Positions 3,148 through 24,423 of a stretch of 64,000 bases of DNA are shown piece after piece. Position 1 is the first letter of the stretch. Each line of letters starts with the position of its first letter. The notes under the pieces are model-generated. The model had not been told where the DNA came from, did no database searches, and was given only the letters and a program-made list of their open reading frames with translations. Origin of the DNA: Gemmatimonadaceae bacterium (GTDB taxonomy: Bacteria; Gemmatimonadota; Gemmatimonadetes; Gemmatimonadales; Gemmatimonadaceae); assembly GCA_051859245.1 (NCBI GenBank), contig JBHYGA010000004.1:832001-896000 (forward strand). Reading direction: 5' to 3'. A program made the position numbers and the translations under genes.

Positions 3148-3210
3148 GCCGCAATTTAGCGTGCGGGGCAGTCGCGAGCCTGGCAGGTTTTCACGCCTCG
3201 TTGGTGGACA

Positions 3211-5730: not shown

Positions 5731-7367
5731 GCGTGATTACGCTGCGCACGCAGCATGGCGCGCACGGTCTCGAGGGTGTCAGCGTCGGCGGCTGTTTTGT
5801 CGCGCCGCCAACGCGCAATGCGCGGAAAGCGAACGGCCAGACCACTTTTGTGGCGCGTGCTTTCCTGAATGCCTTCAAACGCGAGCTCAAACACGAGGCG
5901 CGGTTCTACGGTACGCACCGGTCCAAACTTCTCTTTGGTGTGTGCGCGCACAAAGCGATCCACTTCGCGAATCTCGGCATCGGTGAGCCCGGAGTACGCT
6001 TTGGCAAACGGAACGAGCGTGTTGTCCAGCCATACGGCAAAGGTGTAGTCGGTGTACAAACCGGATCGACGGCCATGTCCGGTCTGCGCGTACACGAGCA
6101 CGGCGTCTACACTCAACGGCGAAACTTTCCACTTCCACCACTCGCCCGCGCGACGCCCAACACCATAGGGCGAGTCCGCGCGCTTGAGCATCAGTCCCTC
6201 TGCTTCCTGTGCGCGTGCGTCGCTACGTAGACGACTCACATCATCCCAACTCTCAACCGCGATGACTGGTGAAAGACTGACCGCAAGCGGCGTCGCACCG
6301 ATTGCCTCATGTCGGTCGGTTAACAGAGAATGCACCCGCTCCAATGCCTCTCGTCTCACATGCATCGGTTCGCTGCGAATATCTCGTCCGTCAACTTCGA
6401 GACAGTCGTAGGCGACCAGATGCACGGGCACATCACTCAAGAGCTTTTTGCCCACCGTTTTGCGATTGAGCCGGCGCTGCAGCGCCGTGAACGGCATGGG
6501 GCGCTTGTCTTGCCACGCCAGCAGCTCGCCATCCAGCACCGTGCCGTCCGGTAGCAGTGAGAGCGACGCTTCTACTTCCGGGAATCGCCCGTTGAGCAAC
6601 TCCTCACCGCGACTCCACAAAAACACCTGGCCCCGACGCACAATAAGCTGCGCACGAATGCCGTCCCACTTGTACTCAATCTGCCACGCGTTCGGCGCAC
6701 CGAGCGTTTCCGGTTCCGCTTCAAGCGGATACGCAAGAAAGAACGGATAGGGGCGACTCCAGTCCGCGTCGCTGGTGGCGGTACTTACGAGCGTGCGGAA
6801 CCACTCGCCTGAGGGTTCCCACTGCCCCATGAGACGATGGGCAATCACGTCCGGTTCAACACCGCTGGTGCGGGCGAGTGCGCGAACCACAAGGCCATCG
6901 GATACGCCAACTCTGAACGCGCCGGTGAGCAGTTTGTTGTACACGAACCGGGCTGTTCCACGCAAGGTGCTCCACGCCTCGAACAGCTGCGTGCGCTGCG
7001 CGTCTGGTGTCAGTGTGCGCAGCGGCAACAATCGCTGCTCTACCCATGCGGCGAGACTGAGATCCACGGCACCCGCACCCTGCTCGACGCTCTCCGGAAT
7101 GAGTAGCGCAATCGTTTCCGCCAGGTCACCAACTTGCGCGTAGGATTCTTCGAACAGCCAATCCGGAATGTTCGCCAGCTCGGCCGCCCACAGTCGCAAA
7201 TCCGGGGCGCGCACGAGTCGTTTGGGTCTGCGTCCGGTAAGAAACGCAACGGCCCACGCCGCGTCGGCCGCGGGTGCATTCGCAAAATACTCCGCCAGCG
7301 CATCTGTCTTCGCCTGCGTACCGGTTGACGAATCGATAGCGTCATAGAGCGCCGCAAAACGGATCAT
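5727..7367 (-). CDS. ATP-dependent DNA ligase
   Basis: Motif I EYKWDGIR, LDGEL, EGLMLKR, WWKWK, C-terminal OB-fold AVRFPRI. Confidence 0.95.
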   Translation of the reverse strand: MIRFAALYDAIDSSTGTQAKTDALAEYFANAPAADAAWAVAFLTGRRPKRLVRAPDLRLWAAELANIPDWLFEESYAQVGDLAETIALLIPESVEQGAGAVDLSLAAWVEQRLLPLRTLTPDAQRTQLFEAWSTLRGTARFVYNKLLTGAFRVGVSDGLVVRALARTSGVEPDVIAHRLMGQWEPSGEWFRTLVSTATSDADWSRPYPFFLAYPLEAEPETLGAPNAWQIEYKWDGIRAQLIVRRGQVFLWSRGEELLNGRFPEVEASLSLLPDGTVLDGELLAWQDKRPMPFTALQRRLNRKTVGKKLLSDVPVHLVAYDCLEVDGRDIRSEPMHVRREALERVHSLLTDRHEAIGATPLAVSLSPVIAVESWDDVSRLRSDARAQEAEGLMLKRADSPYGVGRRAGEWWKWKVSPLSVDAVLVYAQTGHGRRSGLYTDYTFAVWLDNTLVPFAKAYSGLTDAEIREVDRFVRAHTKEKFGPVRTVEPRLVFELAFEGIQESTRHKSGLAVRFPRIARWRRDKTAADADTLETVRAMLRAQRNHA

Positions 7368-8416
7368 GACGTAACTCCGTTCGCATCTGCGCTCGCGTTG
7401 GTGCTGTCGGTTTCGTCAACCGCGGCGTCATCACGTTCGCCCTCAAATCGTGTGGCGATCGCGCTCGCTTCGTAGCCATGTTCTGTGAGCCAACGCACCA
7501 CCGGGCCGGTAAATCCGTGTGTGACCCACACGCGTTCAGCGCCGGTGGCGGAGATGGCGCTCAATAGCTGGGGCCAGTCGACGTGGTCTGACAACGTGAA
7601 TCCTCGATCAACGCCGCGCCGTCGACGGGCTCCGCGCACCTGCATCCAGCCGCTTGCAAACGCGGCGGTGTGTTTGCCAAAGCGGCGTACCCAGGTGCTG
7701 CCATCAACGCTTGGTGGAGCCACAATAATGGCGCGTGCCCATGCCGGATCGCGCTGATCAACCGTAGCATAGGTGGTAGGCGGCATCGTGATGCCGGCCT
7801 CGCGATACAGCGCGGTCATGCTCTCGACGGCGCCATGCGTGAGAATTGGGCCAATGTCTGGATCGAGTCCGGACAGTAGACGCTGTGCTTTGCCGAGTGC
7901 GTAGCCGTAAAGCAGCGAGGCGCGGCCAGCGTTTGCGTTCTCGCGCCACCACTGGTTGATCTCGCCAAACACCTCGGTTTGCGCCGGCCAGCGATAGATG
8001 GGCAGGCCAAACGTGCTCTCGGTGATGAAGGTGTGGCACCGCACCGGTTCCCACGGCGCGCACGTGGTGTCAGCGTCCGTTTTGTAGTCACCGGATACCA
8101 CCCACACCTCACCCTTGTATTCCACGCGAATCTGTGCCGATCCGAGAATGTGGCCGGCGGGGTGCAGCGAGATCCGTACGCCGTTGATGGTCGTCGTTTC
8201 GCCATACGGTACCGCGCGCACACGATCCGCCTGCGCCCCCAGTCGATGACGCGAAACGCCGAGTCCCGCTTCGGAGACGAGATAGTGCCGGTGTCCCCAA
8301 CGCAGGTGATCGGCATGCGCGTGCGTGACTACGGCGCGGTCAACGGGCGCCCATGGGTCGATGAAGATGTCCGCCGCCTCGCACCAGAGGCCGCGATCCG
8401 TCAGGCGTAACAGCAT
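7364..8416 (-). CDS. Ligase-associated DNA damage response exonuclease (metallo-beta-lactamase fold)
   Basis: THAHADH, AGHILGSA, SGDYK, ESTFGLP, LSDHVDW. Start placed at ATG 8416 (MLLRLTDRGLWC); the longer ORF to 8599 overlaps the divergent gene. Confidence 0.92.
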   Translation of the reverse strand: MLLRLTDRGLWCEAADIFIDPWAPVDRAVVTHAHADHLRWGHRHYLVSEAGLGVSRHRLGAQADRVRAVPYGETTTINGVRISLHPAGHILGSAQIRVEYKGEVWVVSGDYKTDADTTCAPWEPVRCHTFITESTFGLPIYRWPAQTEVFGEINQWWRENANAGRASLLYGYALGKAQRLLSGLDPDIGPILTHGAVESMTALYREAGITMPPTTYATVDQRDPAWARAIIVAPPSVDGSTWVRRFGKHTAAFASGWMQVRGARRRRGVDRGFTLSDHVDWPQLLSAISATGAERVWVTHGFTGPVVRWLTEHGYEASAIATRFEGERDDAAVDETDSTNASADANGVTS

Positions 8417-8468
8417 GGTAGTGAGTGTCTTGCGGCGCGTGTTCGTTCCGTCCCGTAATATGAGTGGC

Positions 8469-11027
8469 ATGACGCACAAACTCTTGCTACTGACCGTAGG
8501 GCTACTCTTGTTCGGCGCCGCGGCATGCAACCAGGACGACGTCCCTGCGCCGGACGCTGGCGTGTCGCGGGCGCTCGCTGAACATCGCGGGTCGAGCATT
8601 TCGGACCTGCGCTACGAGCTCGCGCTACGCGTTCCTGCTAGCCGGACGGAGGCCGTGACCGGCACCGTACACGTGCGATTCAGTTTGTCCGATGTGTCGC
8701 AGCCGCTCGTGCTCGATTTTCGCGCACCGTCCGATCATGTACTCGCTGTTCAGTTGAACGGCGATTCGGTCCAGTACGAGGTGCCACCCGATCACATTGT
8801 GATCCCTTCGCGCGCACTCACGGTAGGAGCGCAGACGGTTACGGTGTCGTTCCGCAGTACCGATGCCGCGCTGAACAGACAGGATGATCTGCTGTACGCC
8901 TTGTTTGTTCCGGATCGAGCGTCCACCGCCTTCCCGGTCTTTGAGCAGCCCAATCTGAAGGCGCGCTTCACGCTTGCCATGACGATCCCATCAGCGTGGC
9001 GAGCGATTTCGAATGGCGCCAAGCAACGAGAAGATGGTGTGGACGACCTGACGACCACGCTGCACTTCGCCGAAACCAAACCCATCAGCACGTATCTGTT
9101 CACGTTTGCGGCTGGTGTGTTTTCAACGGAGACCGCGGTGCGCAACGGTCGCACGCTCACCATGTACCATCGAGAAACGGATTCACTCAAGTTGCAGCGC
9201 AATCGCGAGGCAATTTTTGATCTGCATGCAGCGTCGCTCTCATGGCTGGAAGAGTACACCCAAATTCCATATCCGTTTGACGAGTTCGCATTTCTTGCGG
9301 TCCCAGCCTTTCAGTTTGGCGGCATGGAGCACCCCGGCGCGATCTGGTACCGCGCGGAGTCACTGTTTCTCGATCCAACCGCGTCGCGTACTCAGGAGCT
9401 TGGTCGTGCGAGTCTGATCGCGCACGAAACAGCGCACATGTGGTTTGGCGATCTGGTCACCATGCGATGGTTCGACGATGTGTGGATGAAAGAAGTCTTT
9501 GCAAATTTCATGGCCGCAAAGATTGCGGGTCCGTCGTTCCCCGAGCTGAATCTTCGCCTGCGATTTTTTCAGGCACATCATCCCACGGCGTACGCAGTGG
9601 ATCGGACGGCCGGCGCCAACGCGATTCGCCAGCCTCTGGAGAACCTGCGCGATGCGGGATCACTCTACGGTGCCATCATTTATCAGAAAGCGCCCGTGGT
9701 GATGCAGCAGCTCGAAGAGCTGATTGGCGCAGACGTCATGCGCGACGGGTTGCGGGAATACCTGAACCGCTTTCGCTACGGCAATGCCACATGGCCTGAT
9801 CTGATCGCCATCCTCGACGAGCGAAGCACGGAAGATCTGGCCACGTGGAGCCAGGTGTGGGTGAATGAGCCCGGCCGTCCTCGCATCACGGTCGAGCGGC
9901 GTGACTCCGGCCTCGTGCTCACGCAGTCTGACGATATGCCCAATCGCGCGTTGCGTTGGACGCAGCCGATCGTGATTGCCGTCGGAACCGGCGACCGTGA
10001 GGTGGAGCATCGGGTGTCGCTGCGTGAAGCATCCGCATTTCTTCCGCTCAAGGCGCAAGACACCACTACGTTCGTGCTGGCGGGTGCAGACGGCGTTGGC
10101 TACGCGCGATTTGTTCTCGACGCGGCGAGTCGTGATCACCTGCTGGAGAATGTCAACGCGCTCGACAACCCCATCCATCGTGCCGCCGCGTGGCAATCGT
10201 TGTGGGAAGAGGTACTCGACGATTCCATGGCGGCGCTCGACTTTGTTCGAGCGACAACGCGCGCGGTCGAACAGGAACAGGATGAACTCGTAGCGCAGCA
10301 AGTGCTCGGACTGTTGCGTGGTGCGTATTGGCGATTCCTTTCCGACTCATTGCGAACCGCCGTTGCGCCAAGTGTCGAACGTGCGCTTTGGAATGCACTG
10401 GATCGCGCACCCACACCGGGGCGCAAGGGAGCGTATTTCAGTACCATTGTCAGCGTTTCACTCTCTGCCGATGGCGTCAACAGACTGGAACGTATCTGGC
10501 GACGCGACGAAACGCCGCGCGGACTTCCGTTGGTTGAGCAACAGTACATTTCGCTGGCAGAAGCACTCGCGCTGCGCGGCGTACCCAACGCCGACTCCAT
10601 TCTTGACGCGCAGTCAACACGCATTACCAACCCGGATCGGCGCGCGCGTTTTGCCTTCGTTCGTCCCGCGTTCAGCCGCAACTTCCGTGTTCGTGACTCG
10701 TTGTTTCAGACGTTCACAAACGTAGAGAACCGACGCCGCGAATCGTGGGTGCTCGATGCCATGAGTGCCATGCATCATCCACTGCGGGCGAAAGAGGCAA
10801 TCGCACAGGTTGCGCCCAGTCTTGAACTCACCGAAGAAATCCAACGTACGGGCGATATTTTCTTCCCACTCCGATGGCTGAACGCCACGCTCGATGGACA
10901 TCGATCCAAAGAGGCCGCGGATCTGGTGCGCGCGTATCTGGCGAAGCATCCAGACCTTCCGCCGCGACTGCGCGGCAAGGTGTTACAAGCCGCGGACGAC
11001 CTCTATCGTGCGTCTACGAGGGAGTAA
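8469..11027 (+). CDS. M1 family aminopeptidase (PepN-like), probable lipoprotein
   Basis: GGMEH (GAMEN-like), HETAH plus WMKE zinc motif, YQK catalytic Tyr region, ERAP1-like C-terminus. Signal peptide ends in LFGAAAC. Start is ATG 8460 or 8469. Confidence 0.9.
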   Translation: MTHKLLLLTVGLLLFGAAACNQDDVPAPDAGVSRALAEHRGSSISDLRYELALRVPASRTEAVTGTVHVRFSLSDVSQPLVLDFRAPSDHVLAVQLNGDSVQYEVPPDHIVIPSRALTVGAQTVTVSFRSTDAALNRQDDLLYALFVPDRASTAFPVFEQPNLKARFTLAMTIPSAWRAISNGAKQREDGVDDLTTTLHFAETKPISTYLFTFAAGVFSTETAVRNGRTLTMYHRETDSLKLQRNREAIFDLHAASLSWLEEYTQIPYPFDEFAFLAVPAFQFGGMEHPGAIWYRAESLFLDPTASRTQELGRASLIAHETAHMWFGDLVTMRWFDDVWMKEVFANFMAAKIAGPSFPELNLRLRFFQAHHPTAYAVDRTAGANAIRQPLENLRDAGSLYGAIIYQKAPVVMQQLEELIGADVMRDGLREYLNRFRYGNATWPDLIAILDERSTEDLATWSQVWVNEPGRPRITVERRDSGLVLTQSDDMPNRALRWTQPIVIAVGTGDREVEHRVSLREASAFLPLKAQDTTTFVLAGADGVGYARFVLDAASRDHLLENVNALDNPIHRAAAWQSLWEEVLDDSMAALDFVRATTRAVEQEQDELVAQQVLGLLRGAYWRFLSDSLRTAVAPSVERALWNALDRAPTPGRKGAYFSTIVSVSLSADGVNRLERIWRRDETPRGLPLVEQQYISLAEALALRGVPNADSILDAQSTRITNPDRRARFAFVRPAFSRNFRVRDSLFQTFTNVENRRRESWVLDAMSAMHHPLRAKEAIAQVAPSLELTEEIQRTGDIFFPLRWLNATLDGHRSKEAADLVRAYLAKHPDLPPRLRGKVLQAADDLYRASTRE

Positions 11028-14920: not shown

Positions 14921-16060
14921 TTAGCCCGCGTTCGCGTCTGCGAAACTTTCCGCAAACGTTGGGGCCATGAGTCCCTCGAGGGACCGACCGTGTGGATCCT
15001 GATGTGAACGGATGTTGTTGACCATCTCGAGTGCGGTCTGCGTGAGCGGCGGCAGCGTCATAGACGATGTTCCAAGCGGCGTCACACGCTGTCCCCATTT
15101 GACCAGCAACGAGCAGTACGTCAGCCCTCCACCAAACGCCGGCAGCAGCAAGGTAGCGCCCGGTTTGACCCGTCCCGCTTCAAGGGCCTCCACCAGCGCA
15201 ACGGGAACAGTGGCCGCGCTCATGTTGCCATATTTCTCCACCGTCACAACCACGCGCTCCATCGGAATACCGGCGTATTTGGCGACGGCTTCGATGATGC
15301 GCAGGTTCGCCTGATGCGGCACCACGAGATCGACCTGATCTGCCGTGAGCCCCTGCTGTTCCAATACGCGCTTTGATGCATCAGACATGGCGTGAACGGC
15401 GCGCTTGAAAATTGCCTGTCCGTCAAAATCCCACAGCGTATCGCCGAAGGTGACGTCATGCAGCGCGTAGGTGCAGCCAAACCCTCGCACGCGCAGCGTG
15501 TGCCGGCCCTCTGCGTCACAGCCGAGAATGCTGCCGAGTACACCTTCTTCGTTGTCAGACGCTTGCAGTACAACCGCAGCGGCGCCGTCGCCAAAGAGCA
15601 CGGCGACATTACGATTCGACCAATCCATGTAGCGGCTGATCAGCTCCACGCCGATCACGATTGCATTGCGCACGACGCCCGTACGAATCATGGCCGTGGC
15701 GGTGGTAAGGCCATAACAGAAACTGGTGCACGCCGTATTCAGATCGATGCTCGCCGCCCGTGTCGCGCCCAGTGCCATTTGTACACCCGACGCACTGTTC
15801 GGTACGAGTTCGTCGTTGCTGACGCCGCCGTAAATGATCAAATCAACATCGGCGGCATCGAGCCCGGCGCAGGCCAGCGCTCGCGACGCGGCCACCGTGG
15901 ACAGCTCGATCGCACCCACGTGCGACACGCGACGCTCTTTCATACCGGTGCGCGACGAGATCCACTCGTCGGACGTGTCGAGAAAGGTGCTGAGGTCGTT
16001 GTTCGTGAGAATGGCCGGCGGCATGCAAGCGCCCCAGCCCGTGATCGCGGCGTAGGTCAT
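14921..16060 (-). CDS. fabH: Beta-ketoacyl-ACP synthase III
   Basis: DTSDEWI, catalytic Cys (TACTSF), LFGDGA, His (PHQAN), Asn (YGNMSAA), FGGG; about 50 aa C-terminal extension. Confidence 0.92.
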   Translation of the reverse strand: MTYAAITGWGACMPPAILTNNDLSTFLDTSDEWISSRTGMKERRVSHVGAIELSTVAASRALACAGLDAADVDLIIYGGVSNDELVPNSASGVQMALGATRAASIDLNTACTSFCYGLTTATAMIRTGVVRNAIVIGVELISRYMDWSNRNVAVLFGDGAAAVVLQASDNEEGVLGSILGCDAEGRHTLRVRGFGCTYALHDVTFGDTLWDFDGQAIFKRAVHAMSDASKRVLEQQGLTADQVDLVVPHQANLRIIEAVAKYAGIPMERVVVTVEKYGNMSAATVPVALVEALEAGRVKPGATLLLPAFGGGLTYCSLLVKWGQRVTPLGTSSMTLPPLTQTALEMVNNIRSHQDPHGRSLEGLMAPTFAESFADANAG

Positions 16061-16144
16061 CAGGATCGCGGTAAGGGATCAGGAGGGACCTGAAACATGC
16101 GCGCGAGAGGGTGTCGAGCGCGAGGGGGGCCGGCGCCCCACCCG

Positions 16145-17212
16145 CTAACGACAGGCCGCGCGCGTGGGCAGCACCACCCAGTAGTCGAACTCCAGCACAA
16201 CGTTTGGCAGATACGCGCCGGTCTCATCCCGAAGTGGAAAGCCGGCGGCGGAGTGGTCCTTGAGCGCAACAGTGCGCAGGCGAAGGGCGCCCACATCGGT
16301 GCGTTCCGCCAACGGCTGTTTGTCCACCACTTCCGACCACGCATAGATCGTGTCACCGGCAAACGCCGGGTTCACGTGTCGACCGGCGTTGATACCGAGC
16401 AGCGCAAAGGCGTTGCCGAGTCCGTTAAATGACAGCGCACGCGCCAGACTGATGATGTGCCCACCGTACACAATGCGGCGGCCAAAACGGCCTTCACGTT
16501 CGACATGCTGGTTGAAGTGCACGCGCGCACTGTTCTGATAGAGTCGCGCCGCCATCATGTGTTCCGCTTCTTCAATCGTCATGCCGTCGACATGATCAAT
16601 GCGCTCACCCACTGCGTAATCGTCCCACGCATTGGGGTCGCCGGACAGTCGTGTGTCGTACGCCTGCTGCGCAATTCGGAACGGCACCGACAGTGAGTCA
16701 GCGGCCACAGACTCCGGTAACGACGGCACCACGGTTTCCGGTGGAGCAGACGACGCATCTCGCTTTCGCACCATGGCCCAACGGGTGTACTCCACGACCA
16801 TCTCGCCACGCTGATTTGCACCACGTGAACGCACGTACACCACACCGGTGGTGCCGTCTTTGTTGGCCTTGACGCCCAACACCGTACTAACCGTTGAGAC
16901 GGTGTCGCCCGGAAACACCGGCACACCGAAGCGACCGTCGGCATAGCCCAGGTTGGCGATCGCGTTGAGCGAGATGTCGGGCACGGACTTGCCGAACACC
17001 ATATGAAAGACGAGCACCGAATCAACGGGCGACTCGGAAACGCCCACGCACGTTGCGAACGGCGATGAGCTGGTCACCGCAAAGCGCGAGCCAAAGAGCG
17101 ACGTGTAGAGCGCCACGTCACCCGTGGTGATCGTACGCGGTGTGGCGTGCACCAACTCCTGGCCCACGAAAAAATCTTCGAAATAGTTTCCGTGCTGTGT
17201 TTTGCCGGTCAT
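16145..17212 (-). CDS. mch: Mesaconyl-C1-CoA hydratase (beta-methylmalyl-CoA dehydratase), double hot-dog/MaoC fold
   Basis: GNYFEDF, HATPRTIT, FGKSVPDISLNAIANLGY, IEEAEHM and RVHFNQHVEREGRFGRRIVYGGHIISLAR match my recall of Chloroflexus Mch; start at ATG 17212. Confidence 0.9.
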   Translation of the reverse strand: MTGKTQHGNYFEDFFVGQELVHATPRTITTGDVALYTSLFGSRFAVTSSSPFATCVGVSESPVDSVLVFHMVFGKSVPDISLNAIANLGYADGRFGVPVFPGDTVSTVSTVLGVKANKDGTTGVVYVRSRGANQRGEMVVEYTRWAMVRKRDASSAPPETVVPSLPESVAADSLSVPFRIAQQAYDTRLSGDPNAWDDYAVGERIDHVDGMTIEEAEHMMAARLYQNSARVHFNQHVEREGRFGRRIVYGGHIISLARALSFNGLGNAFALLGINAGRHVNPAFAGDTIYAWSEVVDKQPLAERTDVGALRLRTVALKDHSAAGFPLRDETGAYLPNVVLEFDYWVVLPTRAACR

Positions 17213-17216
17213 GCGA

Positions 17217-18260
17217 TCAGAATCCATACGCAGCGGCGAGTTCGGGATCGTTGCTTGCGACAAGACGCGCGAGATCAACGATCACCTTGGCCTGCTTCCA
17301 GGTGGCATCGTCCTGCATCTTGCCATCAATCATGGCCACCCCGCTGCCATCGGGCATGGCGTCGAGAATCCGACGGGCGAACAACACTTCCCTGGCGTCC
17401 GGACTGAACACTCGGCGCGCAATCGCAATCTGATTAGGCGCCAGTGACCACGCGCCAGTGCAACCCATCACGAACGCATTGCGGAACTGCGCTTCACAGC
17501 CCGCCTCGTCACGAATATCGCCGAAGGGGCCATAGAACGCACGAATACCATGTGACACACACGCATCCACCATGCGAGCCACCGTGTAGTGCCACAGGTC
17601 CTGCTGTACAAAGGTGCGCGGTGCGTTCGATTCGTCGGGATCAGACAGCACGCCGTAGAACGGATGCCCACCGCCCACACGCGTTGTTTTCATGCCACGC
17701 GACGCCGCGAGATCGGCCGGGCCCAGACTCATGCCGTGCATGCGCGGACTGGCGCCGGCAATCTGCTCCACATTCTTCACGCCTTCGGCCGTTTCGAGCA
17801 GTGCGTGAATAAGAATCGGCTTGCGAATATTGTAGCGCGCTTCGAGCAGCGCGAGGTACTGATCCACAAAGTGAATGTCCCAGGGGCCCTCCACTTTCGG
17901 AATCATGAACACATCAAGCTTGTTGCCGGCGTCGCGTACAATCTGATCAAGATCATCAAGAAACCATGGTGAGTTCAGACAGTTCACGCGCACCCACAGC
18001 GCCGTGGTGCCGAAATCATTGGCGTTTGCAACCTCAATGAAGCCGGCGCGCGCCGCCGCTTTGTCTTCTACCGGAATGGCATCTTCCAGATTGCCGCACA
18101 GCACATCGACCTGACGCACCATTTCCGGCACGCGTGCCCGGATCTTTTCTATGTGTGGCGGAAAAAAATGAATCATGCGCTCCGGTCGCACGGGCAATGC
18201 ACGCAGCGGTTCGGGGGCGCCAATGGCTAACGGCTTGTAAAAATTGAACGGAAGCTTCAC
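17217..18260 (-). CDS. mcl: (S)-malyl-CoA/beta-methylmalyl-CoA/(S)-citramalyl-CoA lyase, Chloroflexus type
   Basis: [51 protein letters not shown] and [18 protein letters not shown] match my recall of C. aurantiacus Mcl; GTG start with GAGGA-like RBS (TCAGGAG) upstream. Confidence 0.93.
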
Positions 18261-18301
18261 GTGCAGATGCTCCTGAGGAATGTCAGATCGAACGATCGGA
18301 G

Positions 18302-19537
18302 TTACGCGACTGGTCCGGCAACAATGCCATCATCGTGCAGTTGCCCAAGCTCGGCTTCGCTGACGCCAGCGAGCTCGAGCAGAATTTCATCCGTGTGCTG
18401 ACCAAGCAGCGGGGCGGGCGCCGACGGAAGTCGGTGCATCGCCCCAAAATGCAGCGGCGTTCCGGCCGCCAGCACGTTACCAACTCCGGGCTGCGAGAGC
18501 TGAGAGAACATTGGATTCGCGACTGAACAATCCGCGTCTTGCGCGAGCGTTTCTCGCACGGTGCGGTATGGCGCCCACGTGACACGATGCGCAGCAAATG
18601 ATTCAGCGACTGCCGAAAGCGTGCGCGCCGCAAACCACGGTTCCAGCTCGCGCGCAATTGCCTCGCGGGCGCGAAAGCGGTTGCCTTCTTCCTTGAGATC
18701 AAGACCGAGCTGTGCACCCAACGCCGTCATCGCACTGCCGCTGCCTGTGGCGGAGCAGAGTGTCATCCACTGCGCATCCGTCAGACCAATCACCATGACG
18801 CGCGCCCCGTCCTGCGTGACAAAATCGCGGCCAAACGCACCGTACAAGTAGTTGCCGTAACGCGGACGATCGATGTTCGTGAGCTCAACTTCAGCAATGA
18901 AGCCGAGCGCGCCGAGCATCGCGAGGCCGACGTCTTTAAGCGCGAGCGAAATGAACTGTCCCTGTTTGGTACGCGTGCGGTGTCGCTCAGCAGCCAGAAT
19001 GGCAATGGCGATCTGGTGTCCGGCAATCGCATCCCACGCCGGGAAGACATGGTTCACCGGATCCGGACTGTCTGCCGGCCCCGTGATGTTCGGAAAACCA
19101 AGCTGTGGATTCACCGTGTAGTCCACCTCCGATCCACCATCTCGGCGACCGGTGAGGTTGACCATGATGAGATCATCGCGATGCGCGCGCAGTGCATCGT
19201 AAGCGAGCCAGCCACGCGCGGGAAAGTTGGTGGAGAAGATTCCCGCGTCCGCACCTGGCGCACAGATCACACGCGTGAGCAGCTCCTGCGCACGTGGCGA
19301 ACGCAGGTCTACCGCGATGGATCGCTTGCCCTTGTTGAGTCCGGTCCAGAACAGACTCGCCGAGCCATCCGCTGTGAGCGGCCAACGGCGGGCGTCGAGG
19401 CCACCACCGATGGGATCGAAGCGAATGACATCGGCGCCAAGCTGTGCCAACGTCATACCACCGAGCGGCGCGGCAACGAATGCCGATCCCTCAACCACAC
19501 GCATGCCGCTCAACACAGGCTTCGCCGAGTGTGTCAC
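18302..19537 (-). CDS. mct: Mesaconyl-CoA C1:C4 CoA transferase (family III)
   Basis: [57 protein letters not shown] (catalytic Asp) and [12 protein letters not shown], as I recall for Mct. Confidence 0.92.
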
Positions 19538-19540
19538 GCG

Positions 19541-20767
19541 CTAGATCACCCGTTGGGCGCGAAGTGAGGCGATTTCTGACTCGGATTTTCCGAGCACATC
19601 ACGCAGCACTTCTTCGGTATGCTGACCGAGTGTTGGGCCGAGACTGCGAATCGTGCCTGGCGTTTCGGAGAGAAGCGGCACGGGAGACGGAATCACCATG
19701 GACTCGCCCGTAAGTGGATCATCGATGGCCACAAGATTGCGGCGTGCGTGAAACTGCCGGTCGCCAAAAATATCGGCAATGTTGTTGAGCGGACCGGCTG
19801 GCGTGTCTGTCGCGTAACAACGCGTGAGCACCTCTTCCCGGGTCAGTGACCCGCACCAATCGCGTACGATTTCGTTGACGGCGTGGCAGTGGGAGAGTCG
19901 CACCTTCTGCTCACCGTACGTGCTTGTTGAGGCCAGCTCTGGCCGCCCCATGGCTGCCGCCAGTCGGGCAAACAGTTTGTCGGTGGCGCATGAGATGGCC
20001 ACCCACTTGCCGTCGCGTGTGGCGAAGTGTCCGTGCGGGCACGCAAAGTCATTGTGCGACGATCCCATGCGTTCGCGCACCATACCGTACATGCTGTACG
20101 CCGGTGCCAGCTCGTCGGTGCAGCGAAACACCGATTCATACAGCGCCGCGTCCACGTACTGGCCTTCGCCTGTCTGATCACGATGACGCAGCGCCATGAG
20201 CACGCCGAGACATCCGTACAAACCGGTCATGTAGTCGCCGAGTGTGGTGGACCCCGGCGTCACCGGCGTGCCTTTTGGCATGCCGGCCAGGTAGGCAATG
20301 CCACCAACGGCATGGGCAACACGCGCAAATCCGGGCCGATCCTTGTACGGGCCGGTTTGTCCGTACCCCGTGACGCGAAGCATGACGAGTCGCGGATTGA
20401 TAGCGTGCAGCACATCCCAGCCCAGTCCCCATTTTTCGAGCGTGCCCGTGCGAAAGTTCTCACACAGCACATCCGTTTTGGCGATGATTTCCTTGAACAG
20501 CGCTACACCTTCAGGCAAGCGCAGATCGAGTGTGACGGATCGCTTGTTGCGCGCTTCGCTCACCCAGGTGAGTGTGTCGCCGCGCTGCGATGGTGTGCCA
20601 AAGCGGCGCAGACCATCACCACCGAGCGGGTGCTCGATCTTGAGCACGTCCGCACCGAACTCGCCGAGCAGCGTGGCGCAGAACGGTGCCGCAATAATGG
20701 TGGCGATATCAACCACGCGAATGCCGTGCAACGGCAGCGCGCTCGTATCAGGCGTCTTCTGATGCAT
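19541..20767 (-). CDS. smtB: Succinyl-CoA:(S)-malate CoA transferase subunit B
   Basis: Family III CoA transferase; [42 protein letters not shown] and [14 protein letters not shown] match my recall of SmtB. Confidence 0.9.
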
Positions 20768-20778
20768 GCGATGGCGGC

Positions 20779-22008
20779 TCAGATGATGTGCTGCGAACGC
20801 AGACGTTCGATCTCTGCGGCGGCAAGGCCGAGCAGATCGCGCATGACTTCATCGGTGGCGTTGCCGAGTGTTGGACCGAGGTTGGTGATGCGCCCTGGCG
20901 TTTTGGAGAGTCGTGGCACAACGCCCGGAATCACGATGTCCTCAATGCCGGGCTCCGACATATGCACCAGATCCTCGCGCGCCTGAAACTGCTCGTCGGC
21001 AAAGATGTCGGCGATTGAGTTCACTTTTCCTACCGGGACTTCTTCGGCGAGACATTTGGCGAGCACTTCATCGCGCGTGAGTGATCCCACCCAGTCAATC
21101 ACAATCGCGTTCACGCGATCGCGATCGGCGAGTCGCTTGCGCTGATCACCGTACAGATTGCTCGACGAGAGATGCGGTTGTCCCATGGCGACCGACAATC
21201 GTTCAAACATTTTGTCGGTCGTGCACGCGATCGCGATCCACTTGTCGTCTGAGGTACGAAAATGTCCGTGCGGCACCGCCACAAAACTGCCGGACCCTTC
21301 GCGTTCGCGGATTTTGCCAGATGTCCCGTAGGCCGTGGCAATTTCTTCGAGCACACGAAACACCGACTCGTAAATGCCGACGTCGACCATTTGTCCGCGT
21401 CCCGTCTGCTCCTGATGACGCAGCGCGATCAGCGTGCCGATGGCACCAAACAAACTGGCGATGTAGTCACCAAGCGGCACGGTGCCAGGCAGCACCGGCG
21501 TTTCACCCGGGAAGCCCGACAAATAGTTCAGGCCACCGAACGCTTGCGCGATGTGTGCGAAGCCAGAGCGCCGGCGATACGGTCCCGTTTGTCCGTAGCC
21601 CGACACGCGCAGCATGACGAGACGTGGATTCGCGGCGTGAATTTCCGACCAACCCAGTCCCCATTCTTCCATGGTGCCGGGTCGAAAGTTTTCGACCAGC
21701 ACGTGCGACTTGCGCACCAGTGCCAGAAACAGCTCAACGCCTTCGGGCTTTCGCAAGTCGAGTGTGACGGATTTGCGATTGCGTCCTTCGCTCAGCCACT
21801 TGAGTGTGGCATCGGCGCGTGGCGACGGTGTGCCGAATCGTCGCATGGGATCGCCTGCAATCGGATGCTCGATCTTGAGCACTTCCGCACCAAACTCTCC
21901 AAGAATCGACGCGGCGTAGGGACCGGCGAGAAAGTTGCCAACATCAAGCACCCGGATTCCCGTCAACGGCAGTTGTTCTGCCGCGGTCTTCTCTTCAGCA
22001 GTACTCAC
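20779..22008 (-). CDS. smtA: Succinyl-CoA:(S)-malate CoA transferase subunit A
   Basis: [53 protein letters not shown] and [12 protein letters not shown] match my recall of SmtA. Start placed at GTG 22008 (AAGGGG RBS); the ORF track extends to 22086. Confidence 0.9.
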
Positions 22009-22190
22009 CAACACCCCTTGGCATAGCGCAAAGTCACGTGCTACTCGGACTTCGCAATCATGGCGCACAACGGCGAAATGCGCCACGTTTGTGGCACAGA
22101 TCTGTCAGTGACGCGCGGGGATGGCTGATCATCGCCAAGCCACTCGCGACACCAACGCGACAGAAAGGTTCTCCGTTCCCCGCCACATCG

Positions 22191-23084
22191 ATGACCGACG
22201 ACGTAACTGAACTCACCACCTGGATCGGACGACGCGAAGTGGTGCGCGATGATCTGGCGGTGACGCAGGCGCAGGCCGCCGCCGCGATGTTCGATCTGAA
22301 CGACGAGCCGCACGCGGGTACCGCGCTGCCGCCCCTTTGGCACTGGTTCTACTTCTTGCCGCGAGCGCGCCAGGAGCGACTTGATCGCGACGGACATCCG
22401 GCACGCGGCGGATTTCTGCCACCGATTACGCTACCGCGTCGCATGTTCGCGGGAAGCCGTGTAACGTTTCATGCACCGCTCGTGCTTGGCACGCCCGCCG
22501 AGCGCGAGGCGACCATCAAAAACGTGTCGCTCAAAAGCGGACGCACCGGCGCGCTCGCGTTCGTCACGGTTGGCTATCGGTTTACGCAGCAGGCGCAGCT
22601 GTGCGTGGAAGAAGAGCAGGATATCGTGTATCGCGAGGTCGGCGATGCGGTTGACGCGCCTGATGTGCGCGAATGGCCCGCGCCTCCCGCCGGCGCGCGA
22701 ACCCGTGATGTCCACGCCGATTCCCGTCTGCTCTTTCGTTTTTCCGCACTCACCTTTAACGCGCATCGCATTCACTACGATCGCGCGTACGCGACGCAGG
22801 ACGAGGGCTACCCAGGACTTGTCGTACACGGGCCGCTCACGGCGATGCTGCTCGCGGAGCTTGCCCAGTCTGTTGAAAGCGCGCACGCAGAACGCGAGCA
22901 CCGCGCACCACGCGACATGCGTACGTTCAGCTTTCGTGGCCTGTCACCGCTCTTTGACACGGCGCCGTTCCGACTGCAGGCGCTCGCCGGGGACCATGCC
23001 ACAACACTTGAGGCGATTCGCTCCGACAGTGCGACGGCCATCAAGGCCGACGCGACCTTTTCGGTCAAGCCGCCGGAAGAATGA
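22191..23084 (+). CDS. meh: Mesaconyl-C4-CoA hydratase
   Basis: LPPLWHWFYFLPRA, DGHP.RGGF.PPI..PRRMFAG, EEEQDIVYRE, LLFRFSALTFNAHRIHYD and GYPGLVVHGPL; divergent from smtA; start at ATG 22191. Confidence 0.87.
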   Translation: MTDDVTELTTWIGRREVVRDDLAVTQAQAAAAMFDLNDEPHAGTALPPLWHWFYFLPRARQERLDRDGHPARGGFLPPITLPRRMFAGSRVTFHAPLVLGTPAEREATIKNVSLKSGRTGALAFVTVGYRFTQQAQLCVEEEQDIVYREVGDAVDAPDVREWPAPPAGARTRDVHADSRLLFRFSALTFNAHRIHYDRAYATQDEGYPGLVVHGPLTAMLLAELAQSVESAHAEREHRAPRDMRTFSFRGLSPLFDTAPFRLQALAGDHATTLEAIRSDSATAIKADATFSVKPPEE

Positions 23085-24387
23085 GCCGAACCGCCGTGCC
23101 TTCGCCCAGCTTGCTCTCGACTTCAATACTGCCGCCGAGATCCTGCACAATGCGCGAGACCACGGTGAGTCCGACACCAGACCCGCGATTGTTCTCCTTG
23201 CTGCTGAAGAACGGTTCGAAAATGCGTTGACGTGTTTCTTCCGACATGCCAACGCCGGAGTCACGCACTTCAAGCACAACGCTGAGCCCTGACGTAGCCG
23301 TGGGTGCACGATCAGACGCGCTGATCACGAGTGTGCCGCCACCCGGCATCGCGTCTCGTGCATTGAATGCAAGATTCAGAATCGCCTGTTCAAGTCGGCT
23401 GGCGACGCCCATGATGGGCCGTGACGCGCGGTGGTCGAACGATATGAGAATGCGACGCGTGAGAATAGGCGGCAACAACGCTTCGAGATGTGCGAAGAAC
23501 GCGCGCACGTCAACGGCGGAGGGCGTCGCGCTGGTTCCGCGTCCAACCGAGAGCAGACTACGCACGAGCGTGCCTGCCTGCGTTCCCACTTCCTTCATGT
23601 CTTGCAACGCATCAGCGGCATCCGGATGATCGCTCGTTCCTTCGAGCAACTCGGCGCTGGCGGTCATCACTTGCACCATATTTGCAAGGTCGTGCGCCAC
23701 ACCGGTTGCGAGCGTAGCCACCAACTCTCGACGCTGCATGGATTCTGCTTCGGCTTGCATCGCGAGCAACGCTTCTTGTTGCTCTTCAAGCTCTGCGGCG
23801 GCGCGTCGATAGATCTCGGTGGTTTTCACAACGATTGAACCGGCAAACCACAAACCGCCAAACACAAAGAACAATTCAAGAACGCGATAGCCTGTTGTTT
23901 GCGCTTCCGAAACCGCCGCCGGTTGCACCGCGCCGCTGTACGCGAAGTAAAAGCCGGCAACAGACGCCGCGGTCGCGAGTACGAGACCGGTAATCAGCGC
24001 GCGCGGTCCGAAAAAAAGCACCGCCACCAACAATGTTACGGCCAACGCCGACACATTCACGGAGCGCGGTCCATTCATCACGAGCGACAGGGCGATCGCG
24101 ATTGTCACACACACGAGATACGCGGCGGCTCGCACACGCGGCGATCGCAGCGGCCATTCCCGAAGCATGAGTGCACCGAGTACCGACAGTGGCACGATCG
24201 GCCACATGAGCGGCTGCGTGATGTACTCGTCCCACCGCAAATAGAACGAGGTGGCAAGCACCGGCGTCCATACCCACAGCGTCAACTGAAACAGCTGACG
24301 CAGCGACGCCTCCCGGGATTCGTCGAGAGGCGAGCTGCGGCGTACGGTGATCAGATTGGCGCGACGGGGAGTCAGGGGAGTTGTCAC
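23065..24387 (-). CDS. Membrane-bound sensor histidine kinase
   Basis: About 6 hydrophobic helices, H-box GVAHDLAN, N-box NLAFNARDA, DSGVGM, FEPFFSSK, GSGVGL; start uncertain (24387-24423). Confidence 0.88.
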   Translation of the reverse strand: MTTPLTPRRANLITVRRSSPLDESREASLRQLFQLTLWVWTPVLATSFYLRWDEYITQPLMWPIVPLSVLGALMLREWPLRSPRVRAAAYLVCVTIAIALSLVMNGPRSVNVSALAVTLLVAVLFFGPRALITGLVLATAASVAGFYFAYSGAVQPAAVSEAQTTGYRVLELFFVFGGLWFAGSIVVKTTEIYRRAAAELEEQQEALLAMQAEAESMQRRELVATLATGVAHDLANMVQVMTASAELLEGTSDHPDAADALQDMKEVGTQAGTLVRSLLSVGRGTSATPSAVDVRAFFAHLEALLPPILTRRILISFDHRASRPIMGVASRLEQAILNLAFNARDAMPGGGTLVISASDRAPTATSGLSVVLEVRDSGVGMSEETRQRIFEPFFSSKENNRGSGVGLTVVSRIVQDLGGSIEVESKLGEGTAVRLILPAA

Positions 24388-24423
24388 AGAGGAGAATCTC
24401 TCCCGCTCCCGCGCGCCGCGCAA

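What the first reader, a model, noticed from the sequence alone, without database searches (positions are those of the whole stretch)
16145..23084. Chloroflexus-type 3-hydroxypropionate bi-cycle glyoxylate module (mch-mcl-mct-smtB-smtA / meh) in an apparently non-Chloroflexota genome
Seen: six adjacent genes. Five lie on the minus strand with 3-41 nt gaps and meh is divergent. Established: in Chloroflexus aurantiacus, SmtAB activates malate to (S)-malyl-CoA and Mcl cleaves it to acetyl-CoA plus glyoxylate. Mcl, Mch, Mct, Meh and Mcl again then convert glyoxylate plus propionyl-CoA to pyruvate plus acetyl-CoA. From memory, the motifs here match those enzymes over long stretches and the gene order matches the Chloroflexus cluster. 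Mct plus Meh distinguishes this from the ethylmalonyl-CoA pathway. Inference: the flanking genes look Gemmatimonadota-like, so this may be a laterally shared module for autotrophic/mixotrophic CO2 fixation (if mcr and pcs are elsewhere) or for co-assimilating glyoxylate/glycolate, propionate and C4/C5 dicarboxylates. Partial sets are known outside Chloroflexota, so novelty for this lineage must be checked.
Basis: partly seen in the sequence, partly recalled or inferred. Interest (0 to 1): 0.9.

Follow-up and report, generated by a model that had tools for sequence, protein, structure and literature searches.

The report
3-hydroxypropionate bi-cycle genes in a phototrophic Gemmatimonadaceae
A light-harvesting bacterium of the Gemmatimonadaceae carries the Chloroflexus-type gene cluster for turning glyoxylate and propionyl-CoA into pyruvate, together with the rest of the 3-hydroxypropionate CO2-fixation bi-cycle; this has already been noted in two genome surveys but never tested in the laboratory.

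Summary
Window 16145-23084 holds mch, mcl, mct, smtB and smtA on the minus strand, with gaps of 4, 41, 3 and 11 nt, and a divergent meh. Each protein best matches the solved Chloroflexus/Roseiflexus enzyme. All 11 Mct active-site or "cork" residues named in print are kept (10 identical, 1 conservative).

The host is Gemmatimonadaceae. Its RpoB is 94-99% identical to a MAG titled Gemmatimonadaceae and 56-59% identical to Accumulibacter and Chloroflexaceae genomes. The flanking genes are syntenic with 8 Gemmatimonadota-labelled loci.

Elsewhere the genome (99.87% complete) holds:
- adjacent full-length pcs and mcr;
- propionyl-CoA carboxylase-type carboxyltransferases, methylmalonyl-CoA epimerase and two mutases;
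- pufLM and acsF.

I found no isocitrate lyase, malate synthase, crotonyl-CoA reductase, true RuBisCO, [NiFe]-hydrogenase, SoxB or form-I CO dehydrogenase.

In a sample of the family, 33 of 400 genomes hold Mct. Of those 33, 32 hold Mcr and 30 hold pufLM. In a six-protein tree the Gemmatimonadota form one clade next to Burkholderiales-type sequences.

This is not new in kind. Garritano et al. 2022 reported the full set in two Gemmatimonadales MAGs, and a 2026 preprint reports the markers in freshwater Gemmatimonadota. The physiological role is untested. I favour light-assisted mixotrophic assimilation over strict autotrophy.

The parts
16145..17212 (-). mch, beta-methylmalyl-CoA dehydratase (mesaconyl-C1-CoA hydratase), 355 aa from ATG 17212
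   Evidence: PF19315 MC_hydratase scores 65.2 bits against a cut-off of 26.5. PDB 4e3e scores 533 bits over residues 23-373, and 8hgn 'beta-methylmalyl-CoA dehydratase' scores 438 bits. Start.
17217..18260 (-). [quoted passage not shown]
   Evidence: PDB 6kin scores 663.8 bits (1-347 to 1-347) and 4l7z scores 661.9 bits. The other solved malyl-CoA lyases score only 208 bits (4l9y) and 183 bits (5ugr). PF03328 HpcH_HpaI.
18302..19537 (-). mct, intramolecular mesaconyl-C1/C4-CoA transferase (2-methylfumaryl-CoA isomerase), 411 aa (400 aa if ATG 19504 is used)
   Evidence: TIGR04253 scores 682.7 bits, E 1.6e-205, covering positions 2-403 of 403; the curated cut-off is 725. PDB 8apq scores 650 bits and 7xkg 648 bits. 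The alignment keeps Leu43, Arg47, Arg75, Asn100, Phe101, Arg104, Glu133, Asp135, Tyr136 and Asp165, with Ile74 changed to Leu (one search read against PMC9813914).
19541..20767 (-). smtB, succinyl-CoA:(S)-malate CoA-transferase subunit B, 408 aa
   Evidence: PF02515 scores 380.7 bits. Homologues at 81-89% identity are named 'succinyl-CoA:(S)-malate CoA-transferase subunit B' by JGI. Its position next to mct is that of Caur_0178.
20779..22014 (-). smtA candidate, second family III CoA-transferase subunit, about 409-411 aa
   Evidence: PF02515 scores 376.1 bits. It is 59% identical to smtB over 399 residues. It sits between smtB and meh, as Caur_0179 does. The name was assigned by position and elimination only; the atlas look-up gave just the generic family name.
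22015..22190 (.). Divergent intergenic region between smtA and meh; the presumed promoter/operator region
   Evidence: Coordinates follow from the starts. A 13-nt inverted repeat, 85% complementary, lies at 22055-22091. The promoter scan found nothing here and its counts were at chance level. Function is inferred, not shown.
22191..23084 (+). meh, mesaconyl-C4-CoA (3-methylfumaryl-CoA) hydratase, 297 aa
   Evidence: The window's own product on record is 297 aa, and homologues at 58-81% identity are named '3-methylfumaryl-CoA hydratase' by JGI. PDB 8khg itaconyl-CoA hydratase scores 200 bits. No NCBIfam match; Pfam gave only a FAS1_DH_region match of 24 bits.

Best explanation
The six genes are the glyoxylate-assimilation and malyl-CoA part of a complete, laterally acquired 3-hydroxypropionate (3HP) bi-cycle gene set. 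The host is a phototrophic Gemmatimonadaceae of the aerobic anoxygenic type.

Proposed steps, inferred from the characterised Chloroflexus enzymes:
1. SmtAB moves CoA from succinyl-CoA to (S)-malate.
2. Mcl cleaves (S)-malyl-CoA to acetyl-CoA and glyoxylate.
3. Mcl condenses glyoxylate with propionyl-CoA to beta-methylmalyl-CoA.
4. Mch dehydrates this to mesaconyl-C1-CoA.
5. Mct shifts the CoA within the molecule to C4.
6. Meh hydrates the product to (S)-citramalyl-CoA.
7. Mcl cleaves that to pyruvate and acetyl-CoA.

The adjacent pcs-mcr pair on another contig, acetyl- and propionyl-CoA carboxylase components, the epimerase and the mutases supply the first cycle.

The genome shows no glyoxylate shunt, no ethylmalonyl-CoA pathway and no Calvin cycle. 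It also shows none of the three inorganic-donor enzymes tested. So the most likely use is light-assisted mixotrophy: bicarbonate is co-fixed while acetate, propionate, 3-hydroxypropionate or glyoxylate/glycolate are assimilated, with ATP from a type-II reaction centre. Strict autotrophic growth is less likely.

Shown here: gene identity, completeness of the gene set, host taxonomy and distribution. Inferred: enzyme activities, flux and physiological role.
For: Identity of the module:
- PDB and family matches for all six proteins.
- Mct active-site and cork residues are kept.
- Homologues carry the names SmtB and Meh.
- Order and orientation are the same in 80 of 80 related loci. Of these, 51 hold all six genes, 7 lack smtAB and 22 are partial, some of them on contigs of only 2-3 kb. 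The order also matches C. aurantiacus.

Rest of the cycle in the same genome:
- pcs: 1828 aa, PDB 6eqo 2419 bits over residues 23-1825.
- mcr: 1240 aa, immediately downstream, PDB 8hi4/8hjw 1181-1187 bits, full length.
- 4 carboxyltransferase matches, 2 methylmalonyl-CoA mutases and an epimerase at 131 bits, over its cut-off.

Phototrophy: pufL and pufM score 335-345 bits. AcsF scores 461 bits.

Alternative routes not found in a 99.87%-complete genome:
- isocitrate lyase and malate synthase;
- Ccr over its cut-off; the best hit is the reductase domain of Pcs itself;
- the only RuBisCO-family ORF lies under every NCBIfam cut-off.

No [NiFe]-hydrogenase, SoxB or form-I CO dehydrogenase was found. 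This favours mixotrophy.

Host: RpoB identities (with the query confirmed as RpoB) and syntenic flanks.

Co-occurrence in the family sample: 32 of 33 Mct holders hold Mcr and 30 of 33 hold pufLM (lists compared by hand).
Against: - There are no expression, enzyme or labelling data. No RNA run holding the stretch was listed.
- Mct scores 682.7 bits, under NCBIfam's curated equivalog cut-off of 725.
- Meh has no curated family match, and SmtA is named by elimination only.
- Succinate dehydrogenase, fumarase, biotin carboxylase, glcDEF and sulfide:quinone reductase were not searched. So the completeness of the first cycle rests on marker families, and the electron-donor inventory rests on three families.
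- Specialist papers treat freshwater phototrophic Gemmatimonadota as photoheterotrophs (PMC8547001, passages). This fits mixotrophy but could equally mean that the genes serve only organic-acid assimilation with no net CO2 fixation.
Confidence: 0.6

Rival explanations
1. Full photoautotrophy. The complete bi-cycle, powered by the type-II reaction centre, supports growth on CO2/bicarbonate as the sole carbon source. That would make this lineage the first autotrophic aerobic anoxygenic phototroph in the phylum.
For: All diagnostic genes are present: mcr, pcs, mct, mcl, mch, meh and smtAB. They occur with pufLM and acsF. The 3HP set and pufLM are tightly associated in the family: 30 of 33 Mct holders hold pufLM, and only 3 of the 336 genomes without pufLM hold Mct. 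Garritano et al. predict autotrophy for two Gemmatimonadales MAGs.
Against: No [NiFe]-hydrogenase, SoxB or form-I CO dehydrogenase was found, so no source of reductant was identified among those tested. There is no physiological confirmation of autotrophy anywhere in the phylum (PMC11316326, passage). As I recall it, Zarzycki and Fuchs 2011 showed that Chloroflexus itself uses the cycle largely for co-assimilation; here I saw that paper only as cited.
Confidence: 0.25
2. The cluster is a catabolic module for C5 dicarboxylates (itaconate, mesaconate or citramalate degradation), or part of an ethylmalonyl-CoA-type pathway. [quoted passage not shown] Mch and Mcl give weak matches to RipB/Ich and RipC/Ccl.
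Against: RipB scores 112.5 bits against a cut-off of 340, and RipC scores 130.7 against 375. Mct, which neither pathway uses, is present with its catalytic and cork residues. No Ccr was found. mcr and pcs co-occur with Mct in 32 of 33 family genomes.
Confidence: 0.04
3. Binning or assembly artefact: a Chloroflexota or Burkholderiales contig was wrongly placed in a Gemmatimonadota genome.
For: The genome is an 11-contig assembly with 2.2% estimated contamination. The module occurs in three phyla.
Against: The cluster lies 832 kb into a 1.09-Mb contig. Its GC of 0.60-0.61 matches that of all contigs, 0.603-0.623. The non-pathway neighbours fabH, the oxidoreductase, the histidine kinase and the PD40 protein are syntenic at 54-96% identity in 8 Gemmatimonadota-labelled loci and in none of the 48 loci from other phyla. 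In the tree the Gemmatimonadota sequences form their own clade.
Confidence: 0.02

Closest known systems
Chloroflexus aurantiacus / Roseiflexus castenholzii 3HP bi-cycle cluster mch-mcl-mct-smtB-smtA-meh (Caur_0173-0180)
   Same: The same six enzymes are present in the same order. Each window protein best matches the solved Chloroflexus or Roseiflexus enzyme. The Mct active site is conserved. mcr and pcs are present as full-length multidomain proteins.
   Different: - The host is a Gemmatimonadaceae with a pufLM/acsF photosystem set rather than a filamentous Chloroflexota.
- The locus tags show two extra genes between mct and smtB in C. aurantiacus (0176, 0177); here the gap is 3 nt.
- pcs and mcr are adjacent and their ORFs overlap by 28 nt, whereas in C. 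aurantiacus they lie far apart (Caur_0613 and Caur_2614).
- C. aurantiacus also has icl and mas; this genome shows neither.
- Identity to Chloroflexota-labelled loci is 56-82%.
[quoted passage not shown] 2022, PNAS Nexus, PMC9802188)
   Same: Same order, same pathway call and the same glyoxylate-salvage operon arrangement (section 7 read whole).
   Different: That paper reports two MAGs and links them to inorganic donors. Here the genome is 99.87% complete and no hydrogenase, SoxB or CoxL was found. I also add the link to pufLM and the spread within the family. I did not open the paper's supplements, so I cannot say whether this genome or a near relative is one of its two MAGs.
Burkholderiales / Accumulibacter / Chromatiaceae copies of the same cluster
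   Same: Identical order and orientation. In the six-protein tree the Gemmatimonadota clade sits on the same side of a 100* branch as 12 Burkholderiales/Chromatiaceae rows. Chloroflexota and the Accumulibacter-type rows sit on the other side.
   Different: In 6 Pseudomonadota loci pcs follows mch, and in 2 mcr lies upstream of meh. In this genome pcs-mcr is on another contig. The tree is unrooted, so the direction of transfer is not shown.
Itaconate degradation genes (Ich/Ccl; RipB/RipC) and ethylmalonyl-CoA pathway Mcl1/Mcd
   Same: The same protein superfamilies: MaoC hydratases, CitE-like lyases and family III CoA-transferases.
   Different: Scores lie far below those families' cut-offs. 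Other solved malyl-CoA lyases score 183-208 bits against 662 for the Chloroflexus type. No Ccr was found.

Membership tests
3HP bi-cycle, second (glyoxylate assimilation) cycle | Mct: NCBIfam equivalog TIGR04253 scored at or above its curated cut-off | tested here: not met
   682.7 bits against a cut-off of 725, with E 1.6e-205 and full-length coverage 2-403 of 403 (the same). This shortfall probably explains why NCBI names the Gemmatimonadaceae proteins only 'CoA transferase'.
3HP bi-cycle, second (glyoxylate assimilation) cycle | Mct: catalytic Asp165, mesaconate-binding Arg47 and Tyr136, entrance-narrowing Leu43 and the CoA 'cork' residues of the intramolecular transferase | tested here: met
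   Of the 11 residues named in PMC9813914, 10 are identical in the alignment to 8apq and Ile74 is replaced by Leu. I numbered the residues by counting from the native Met of the chain.
3HP bi-cycle, second (glyoxylate assimilation) cycle | Chloroflexus-type trifunctional Mcl | tested here: met
   662-664 bits to 4l7z and 6kin, against 208 and 183 bits to the other solved malyl-CoA lyases. Trifunctionality itself cannot be tested with these tools.
3HP bi-cycle, second (glyoxylate assimilation) cycle | Mch (mesaconyl-C1-CoA hydratase) | tested here: met
   PF19315 is over its cut-off. PDB 4e3e scores 533 bits and 8hgn 438 bits.
3HP bi-cycle, second (glyoxylate assimilation) cycle | Meh (mesaconyl-C4-CoA hydratase) | tested here: inconclusive
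   No curated model matches. Homologues at 58-81% identity are named 3-methylfumaryl-CoA hydratase by JGI. The gene is conserved and divergent next to smtA in 51 loci that hold all six genes. The nearest solved structure is an itaconyl-CoA hydratase.
3HP bi-cycle, second (glyoxylate assimilation) cycle | Two-subunit succinyl-CoA:(S)-malate CoA-transferase SmtAB | tested here: met
   Two adjacent family III CoA-transferase paralogues, 59% identical. One has homologues named subunit B. The other is named by position only.
3HP bi-cycle, first cycle (CO2 fixation) | Bifunctional malonyl-CoA reductase and trifunctional propionyl-CoA synthase | tested here: met
   mcr aligns full length to 8hi4/8hjw at 1181-1187 bits. 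pcs aligns over residues 23-1825 to 6eqo at 2419 bits. The two ORFs are adjacent.
3HP bi-cycle, first cycle (CO2 fixation) | Acetyl- and propionyl-CoA carboxylase, methylmalonyl-CoA epimerase and mutase | tested here: met
   Carboxyl_trans gives 4 matches, the best at 654 bits. The epimerase scores 131 bits against a cut-off of 115. There are two mutases at 713-739 bits. Which carboxyltransferase serves which substrate was not resolved.
3HP bi-cycle, first cycle (CO2 fixation) | Succinate dehydrogenase, fumarase and biotin carboxylase | not tested
   No search was run for these.
3HP bi-cycle (function) | Measured enzyme activities and 13C-bicarbonate incorporation | not testable with these tools
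   This needs cultures or recombinant proteins.
Ethylmalonyl-CoA pathway | Crotonyl-CoA carboxylase/reductase (TIGR01751) | tested here: not met
   The best score is 173 bits against a cut-off of 378.55, and that hit is the reductase domain of Pcs.
Itaconate degradation (RipABC / Ich-Ccl) | RipB/Ich and RipC/Ccl equivalogs over their cut-offs | tested here: not met
   112.5 against 340, and 130.7 against 375.
Calvin-Benson cycle | Form I-III RuBisCO large subunit | tested here: not met
   There is a single PF00016 match at 128 bits. The ORF scores under every NCBIfam cut-off, for example 186.9 against 497. I read it as a RuBisCO-like protein.
Glyoxylate shunt | Isocitrate lyase and malate synthase | tested here: not met
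   No match for PF00463 or PF01274 in a 99.87%-complete genome.

The most novel reading that the evidence does not exclude
About half of the phototrophic Gemmatimonadaceae, this genome included, are not plain photoheterotrophs. On this reading they run an oxygen-tolerant 3HP bi-cycle driven by an aerobic-type photosystem and fix significant bicarbonate in oxic lake water. They would also have acquired this carbon module from Burkholderiales-like Proteobacteria, the group credited with donating their photosynthesis genes, possibly in one linked history.
Probability: 0.25. Interest if true: 0.75.

Novelty: new member of a known kind. Interest (0 to 1): 0.45.

Why it matters
Freshwater phototrophic Gemmatimonadota are described in their own literature as photoheterotrophs "without genes for carbon fixation", a conclusion reached after looking only at RuBisCO (PMC8547001). 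This near-complete genome shows the whole 3HP bi-cycle gene set beside a photosystem and without any other known C2-assimilation route.

In the family sample the set is nearly confined to pufLM carriers. It was found in 30 of 64 genomes with pufLM and in 3 of 336 without (relatives are not independent).

If the pathway is active, these common lake bacteria add light-driven inorganic carbon uptake that current carbon budgets do not count. The 3HP bi-cycle would also be shown to work in an aerobe outside Chloroflexota.

A named cultured species, Gemmatimonas groenlandica, holds an 86%-identical SmtB homologue. The question may therefore be testable in culture.

Tried and rejected
- Sequencing runs: no RNA holder was listed. 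One DNA holder may be the source of this DNA, and one other run held a small share that I did not lay. This says nothing about expression or habitat.
- Earlier notes of this scan: nothing fitted.
- Protein atlas for the SmtA candidate: only the generic CaiB/BaiF family name came back, so it could not tell subunit A from subunit B.
- Promoter and terminator scan of 15900-23400: 1 promoter-like site and 6 terminator-like sites, at or below the shuffled means of 1.8 and 6.7. None lay in the divergent region. The scan does not cover non-sigma-70 promoters.
- [NiFe]-hydrogenase, SoxB and form-I CoxL: no match over a cut-off. I used this only as weak evidence on electron donors.
- Chloroflexota origin of the contig: rejected.
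- Ethylmalonyl-CoA and itaconate readings: rejected.
- My recalled order of smtA and smtB in Chloroflexus was the wrong way round. I corrected it from PMC3150298 and the JGI names.
- Not used: structure prediction, fold search, complex prediction, RNA tools, the representative-protein search and the metagenome scan. The sequence-level evidence was already decisive.

Full report
**1. The observation**

In-frame starts and their upstream sequences were examined. The PDB alignment offsets and the products on record for the window then give these genes:

| Gene | Coordinates | Strand |
|---|---|---|
| mch | 16145-17212 | - |
| mcl | 17217-18260 | - |
| mct | 18302-19537 | - |
| smtB | 19541-20767 | - |
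| smtA | 20779 to about 22014 | - |
| meh | 22191-23084 | + |

The gaps are 4, 41, 3 and 11 nt. A divergent region of about 176 bp lies between smtA and meh. GC in this stretch is 0.60-0.61. That is the same as the rest of the window and all 11 contigs, which run 0.603-0.623.

**2. What the proteins are**

- **Mct.** It matches NCBIfam TIGR04253 (2-methylfumaryl-CoA isomerase) end to end at 682.7 bits and E 1.6e-205. This is under the curated cut-off of 725. Its best solved relatives are 8apq (650 bits; the C. aurantiacus Mct structure according to PMC9813914) and 7xkg (648 bits; the R. castenholzii Mct homologue according to the same paper). The next chain scores 88 bits.
- **Mct active site.** The structural paper (PMC9813914, passages) names the catalytic Asp165, the mesaconate ligands Arg47 and Tyr136, and the entrance-narrowing Leu43. 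It also names the CoA "cork" residues Ile74, Arg75, Asn100, Phe101 and Arg104, plus Glu133 and Asp135. In the printed alignment, 10 of these 11 are identical and Ile74 is Leu.
- **Mcl.** It scores 662-664 bits to 4l7z and 6kin, but 208 and 183 bits to the other solved malyl-CoA lyases.
- **Mch.** It passes Pfam PF19315 and scores 533 bits to 4e3e.
- **SmtA and SmtB.** These are two family III CoA-transferases, 59% identical to each other. Homologues of the one next to mct carry JGI's name "succinyl-CoA:(S)-malate CoA-transferase subunit B".
- **Meh.** It has no curated model. Its homologues at 58-81% identity are named 3-methylfumaryl-CoA hydratase. Its nearest solved structure is an itaconyl-CoA hydratase.
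- **Order.** The order equals the C. aurantiacus tags mch 0173, mcl 0174, smtB 0178, smtA 0179, meh 0180 (PMC3150298, passages).
- **Rival families.** RipB and RipC models score far under their cut-offs.

**3. Whose genome**

The window is G000:C4:832001-896000, on a 1.09-Mb contig of a 4.70-Mb genome in 11 contigs. The genome is 99.87% complete with 2.2% contamination.

Its RpoB was confirmed by TIGR02013 at 1758 bits. RpoB identities:

| Genome compared | RpoB identity |
|---|---|
| "MAG: Gemmatimonadaceae bacterium Bin_80_sub" | 94-99% |
| A Gemmatimonas sp. chromosome | 84% |
| Another Gemmatimonadaceae MAG | 77% |
| An Accumulibacter genome, largest aligned segment | 56% |
| A Chloroflexaceae genome, largest aligned segment | 59% |

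The non-pathway neighbours are fabH, an oxidoreductase, a histidine kinase and a PD40-amidohydrolase protein. They recur beside the cluster in 8 Gemmatimonadota-labelled loci and in none of the other 72 loci. The contig is therefore neither Chloroflexota nor chimeric.

**4. The rest of the pathway**

A scan of all ORFs of 1000 aa or more (116 found) turned up an 1828-aa ORF directly followed by a 1240-aa ORF on contig C1.
- The first aligns over residues 23-1825 to 6eqo at 2419 bits. I recall 6eqo as the propionyl-CoA synthase of Erythrobacter sp. NAP1; the tool gives only the depositors' name.
- The second aligns full length to 8hi4 and 8hjw at 1181-1187 bits. I recall these as full-length malonyl-CoA reductases.
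- Both sit among housekeeping genes: recN, NAD kinase and asd.

The genome also has:
- four carboxyltransferase matches;
- two methylmalonyl-CoA mutases;
- an epimerase over its cut-off;
- pufL and pufM;
- the aerobic cyclase AcsF.

It shows:
- no isocitrate lyase;
- no malate synthase;
- no Ccr over its cut-off;
- one RuBisCO-family ORF, under all NCBIfam cut-offs;
- no [NiFe]-hydrogenase, SoxB or form-I CoxL.

Succinate dehydrogenase, fumarase, biotin carboxylase, glcDEF and sqr were not searched.

**5. Relatives and distribution**

A scan of one genome per species found 176 loci encoding a relative of Mct, of which the best 80 were kept. By record title, 32 are Gemmatimonadota, 41 Pseudomonadota, 6 Chloroflexota and 1 Verrucomicrobiota.

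All 80 keep the same relative order and orientation. Of these, 51 hold all six genes, 7 have meh next to mct with no smtAB, and 22 are partial, some of them on contigs of only 2-3 kb.

Identities to the Chloroflexota-labelled loci:

| Protein | Identity |
|---|---|
| Mct | 69-72% |
| Mcl | 81-82% |
| Mch | 66-69% |
| SmtB | 78-80% |
| SmtA | 75-77% |
| Meh | 56-58% |

Most of these values are well above the RpoB identity to the Chloroflexaceae genome.

I built a concatenated six-protein tree. It used 49 rows, those with all six proteins at 80% coverage or more; the other 32 of 81 rows were dropped. It kept 2193 columns and used IQ-TREE quick search, LG+G4, with SH-aLRT support only.
- The 21 Gemmatimonadota rows plus the window fall on one side of a branch (98*).
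- They share a 100* split with 12 Burkholderiales/Chromatiaceae rows.
- The 5 Chloroflexota and 10 Accumulibacter-type rows lie on the other side.
- The tree is unrooted, so neither donor nor direction is shown.
- The sample is biased towards sequences like the query and does not include Chloroflexus or Roseiflexus themselves.

Distribution in evenly drawn samples:
- **Phylum.** Mct at E <= 1e-100 occurs in 7 of 400 other genomes. All 7 are in the window's family (7 of 93); none of the other 307 has it.
- **Family.** Mct occurs in 33 of 400 genomes and 7 of 77 genera, including 10 of 14 in the window's genus. Mcr occurs in 40 of 400. PufLM occurs in 64 of 400.

I compared the three lists by hand:
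- 32 of 33 Mct holders hold Mcr. The exception is G698, which is 84% complete.
- 30 of 33 Mct holders hold pufLM. The exceptions are G670 (84% complete), G382 (94%) and G548 (79%).
- 34 pufLM holders lack Mct.
- 8 Mcr holders lack Mct at this threshold: G471, G654, G684, G414, G441, G505, G525 and G571. They are 74-95% complete.

Relatives are not independent, so these are descriptions and not tests.

**6. How it most likely works**

The chemistry is taken from the characterised Chloroflexus enzymes and is inferred here, not shown. SmtAB makes (S)-malyl-CoA. Mcl splits it to acetyl-CoA and glyoxylate. Mcl, Mch, Mct, Meh and Mcl again then turn glyoxylate plus propionyl-CoA into pyruvate plus acetyl-CoA. 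Mcr, Pcs, the carboxylases, the epimerase and the mutases close the first cycle.

No glyoxylate shunt, ethylmalonyl-CoA pathway or Calvin cycle was found. This is therefore the only recognised route in the genome for net assimilation of C2 units and of glyoxylate.

The genome has a type-II reaction centre and AcsF but none of the three tested inorganic-donor enzymes. I therefore favour light-assisted mixotrophy (0.6) over strict photoautotrophy (0.25).

**7. What is known already**

- Garritano et al. 2022 (PMC9802188; passages and section 7 read whole; supplements not opened) used TIGR04253 as the marker. [quoted passage not shown]
- A 2026 preprint (10.64898/2026.09.02.748891, passages) reports 3-HPB markers in mostly freshwater Pseudomonadota and Gemmatimonadota and calls for validation.
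- PMC11316326 (passages) says there is no physiological confirmation of autotrophy in the phylum.
- The phylum's own literature seen here does not mention the pathway. Term searches for "hydroxypropionate" found nothing in PMC7844134 (the G. groenlandica description), PMC10581226, PMC9426454, PMC8547001 or PMC8779627.
[quoted passage not shown] The passages seen address only RuBisCO.
- Library searches found no other paper linking Gemmatimonadota to mesaconyl-CoA enzymes or malonyl-CoA reductase as a finding of its own. This claim is limited to the open-access library searched.

**8. Verdict**

This genome is a new, high-quality member.
- the adjacency of pcs and mcr;
- the lack of any other C2-assimilation route;
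- the near-restriction of the set to pufLM carriers within one family;
- the single Gemmatimonadota clade next to Burkholderiales-type sequences;
- the observation that the curated Mct cut-off narrowly misses these proteins, which probably keeps them annotated as plain "CoA transferase".

Noticed in passing
G000:C1:1547566-1556747 (L005:7566-16747): pcs (1828 aa) and mcr (1240 aa) are adjacent on the same strand and their longest ORFs overlap by 28 nt, which suggests one operon. In C. aurantiacus they lie far apart (Caur_0613 and Caur_2614). They sit between recN/NAD kinase and asd.
   Followed up: partly
G000:C5:457206-471883: A photosynthesis gene region: pufM/pufL at 470220-471883 and the aerobic cyclase acsF at 457206-458195. 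This fits an aerobic anoxygenic phototroph. The rest of the cluster (L096-L098 were fetched) was not annotated.
   Followed up: partly
G000:C1:982836-984068 (L008:1486-2718, minus strand): The only RuBisCO-large-family ORF (410 aa) scores under every NCBIfam cut-off. Its nearest models are type III RuBisCO, OiaX and MtnW. It is probably a form IV RuBisCO-like protein, as reported for freshwater phototrophic Gemmatimonadota MAGs.
   Followed up: partly
window 2476-8599: A minus-strand run of four genes: a metallophosphoesterase (223 aa), an Lhr-type DEAD/H helicase with a DEAD_assoc domain (839 aa), an ATP-dependent DNA ligase (546 aa) and a 411-aa ORF with no Pfam match. From recall, it resembles the 'ligase-associated DNA damage response' gene set. 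Only Pfam was run.
   Followed up: no
window 26552-47669: A peptidase-rich neighbourhood: a 1177-aa PD40 beta-propeller/amidohydrolase protein, three M28/M20 peptidases, an asparaginase, a DUF4953 Met-zincin (855 aa) and an S9/S33 hydrolase.
   Followed up: no
window 22055-22091: A 13-nt inverted repeat (85% complementary, 11 nt between the arms) lies in the divergent smtA-meh region. It is a possible operator, but conservation in relatives was not checked and it could be chance.
   Followed up: no
window 23065-24423: A sensor histidine kinase ORF runs convergent to meh, and their ORFs overlap by 20 nt. It is kept beside the cluster only in the closest relative (L015, 91% identity), so a regulatory link is doubtful.
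   Followed up: partly
L022, L050, L063, L073, L080, L082, L086: Seven related loci (1 Gemmatimonadota, 6 Pseudomonadota, mostly Dechloromonas/Azonexus/Accumulibacter types) have meh directly next to mct with no smtAB between them. This is a variant of the cluster without the malate-activating transferase.
   Followed up: no
L019 (record titled Longimicrobiales bacterium) and L077 (titled Chthoniobacterales): The cluster from the Longimicrobiales-titled MAG nests inside the Gemmatimonadaceae clade next to L021, and its fabH flank is syntenic. The label or the bin may be off. The single Verrucomicrobiota-titled locus is an 11-kb contig and was not examined.
   Followed up: no
protein P0136: The cultured species Gemmatimonas groenlandica has an SmtB homologue 86% identical to the window's, on a 5.18-Mb replicon. 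The species description paper does not mention the pathway. Whether it holds the full set was not tested here.
   Followed up: partly
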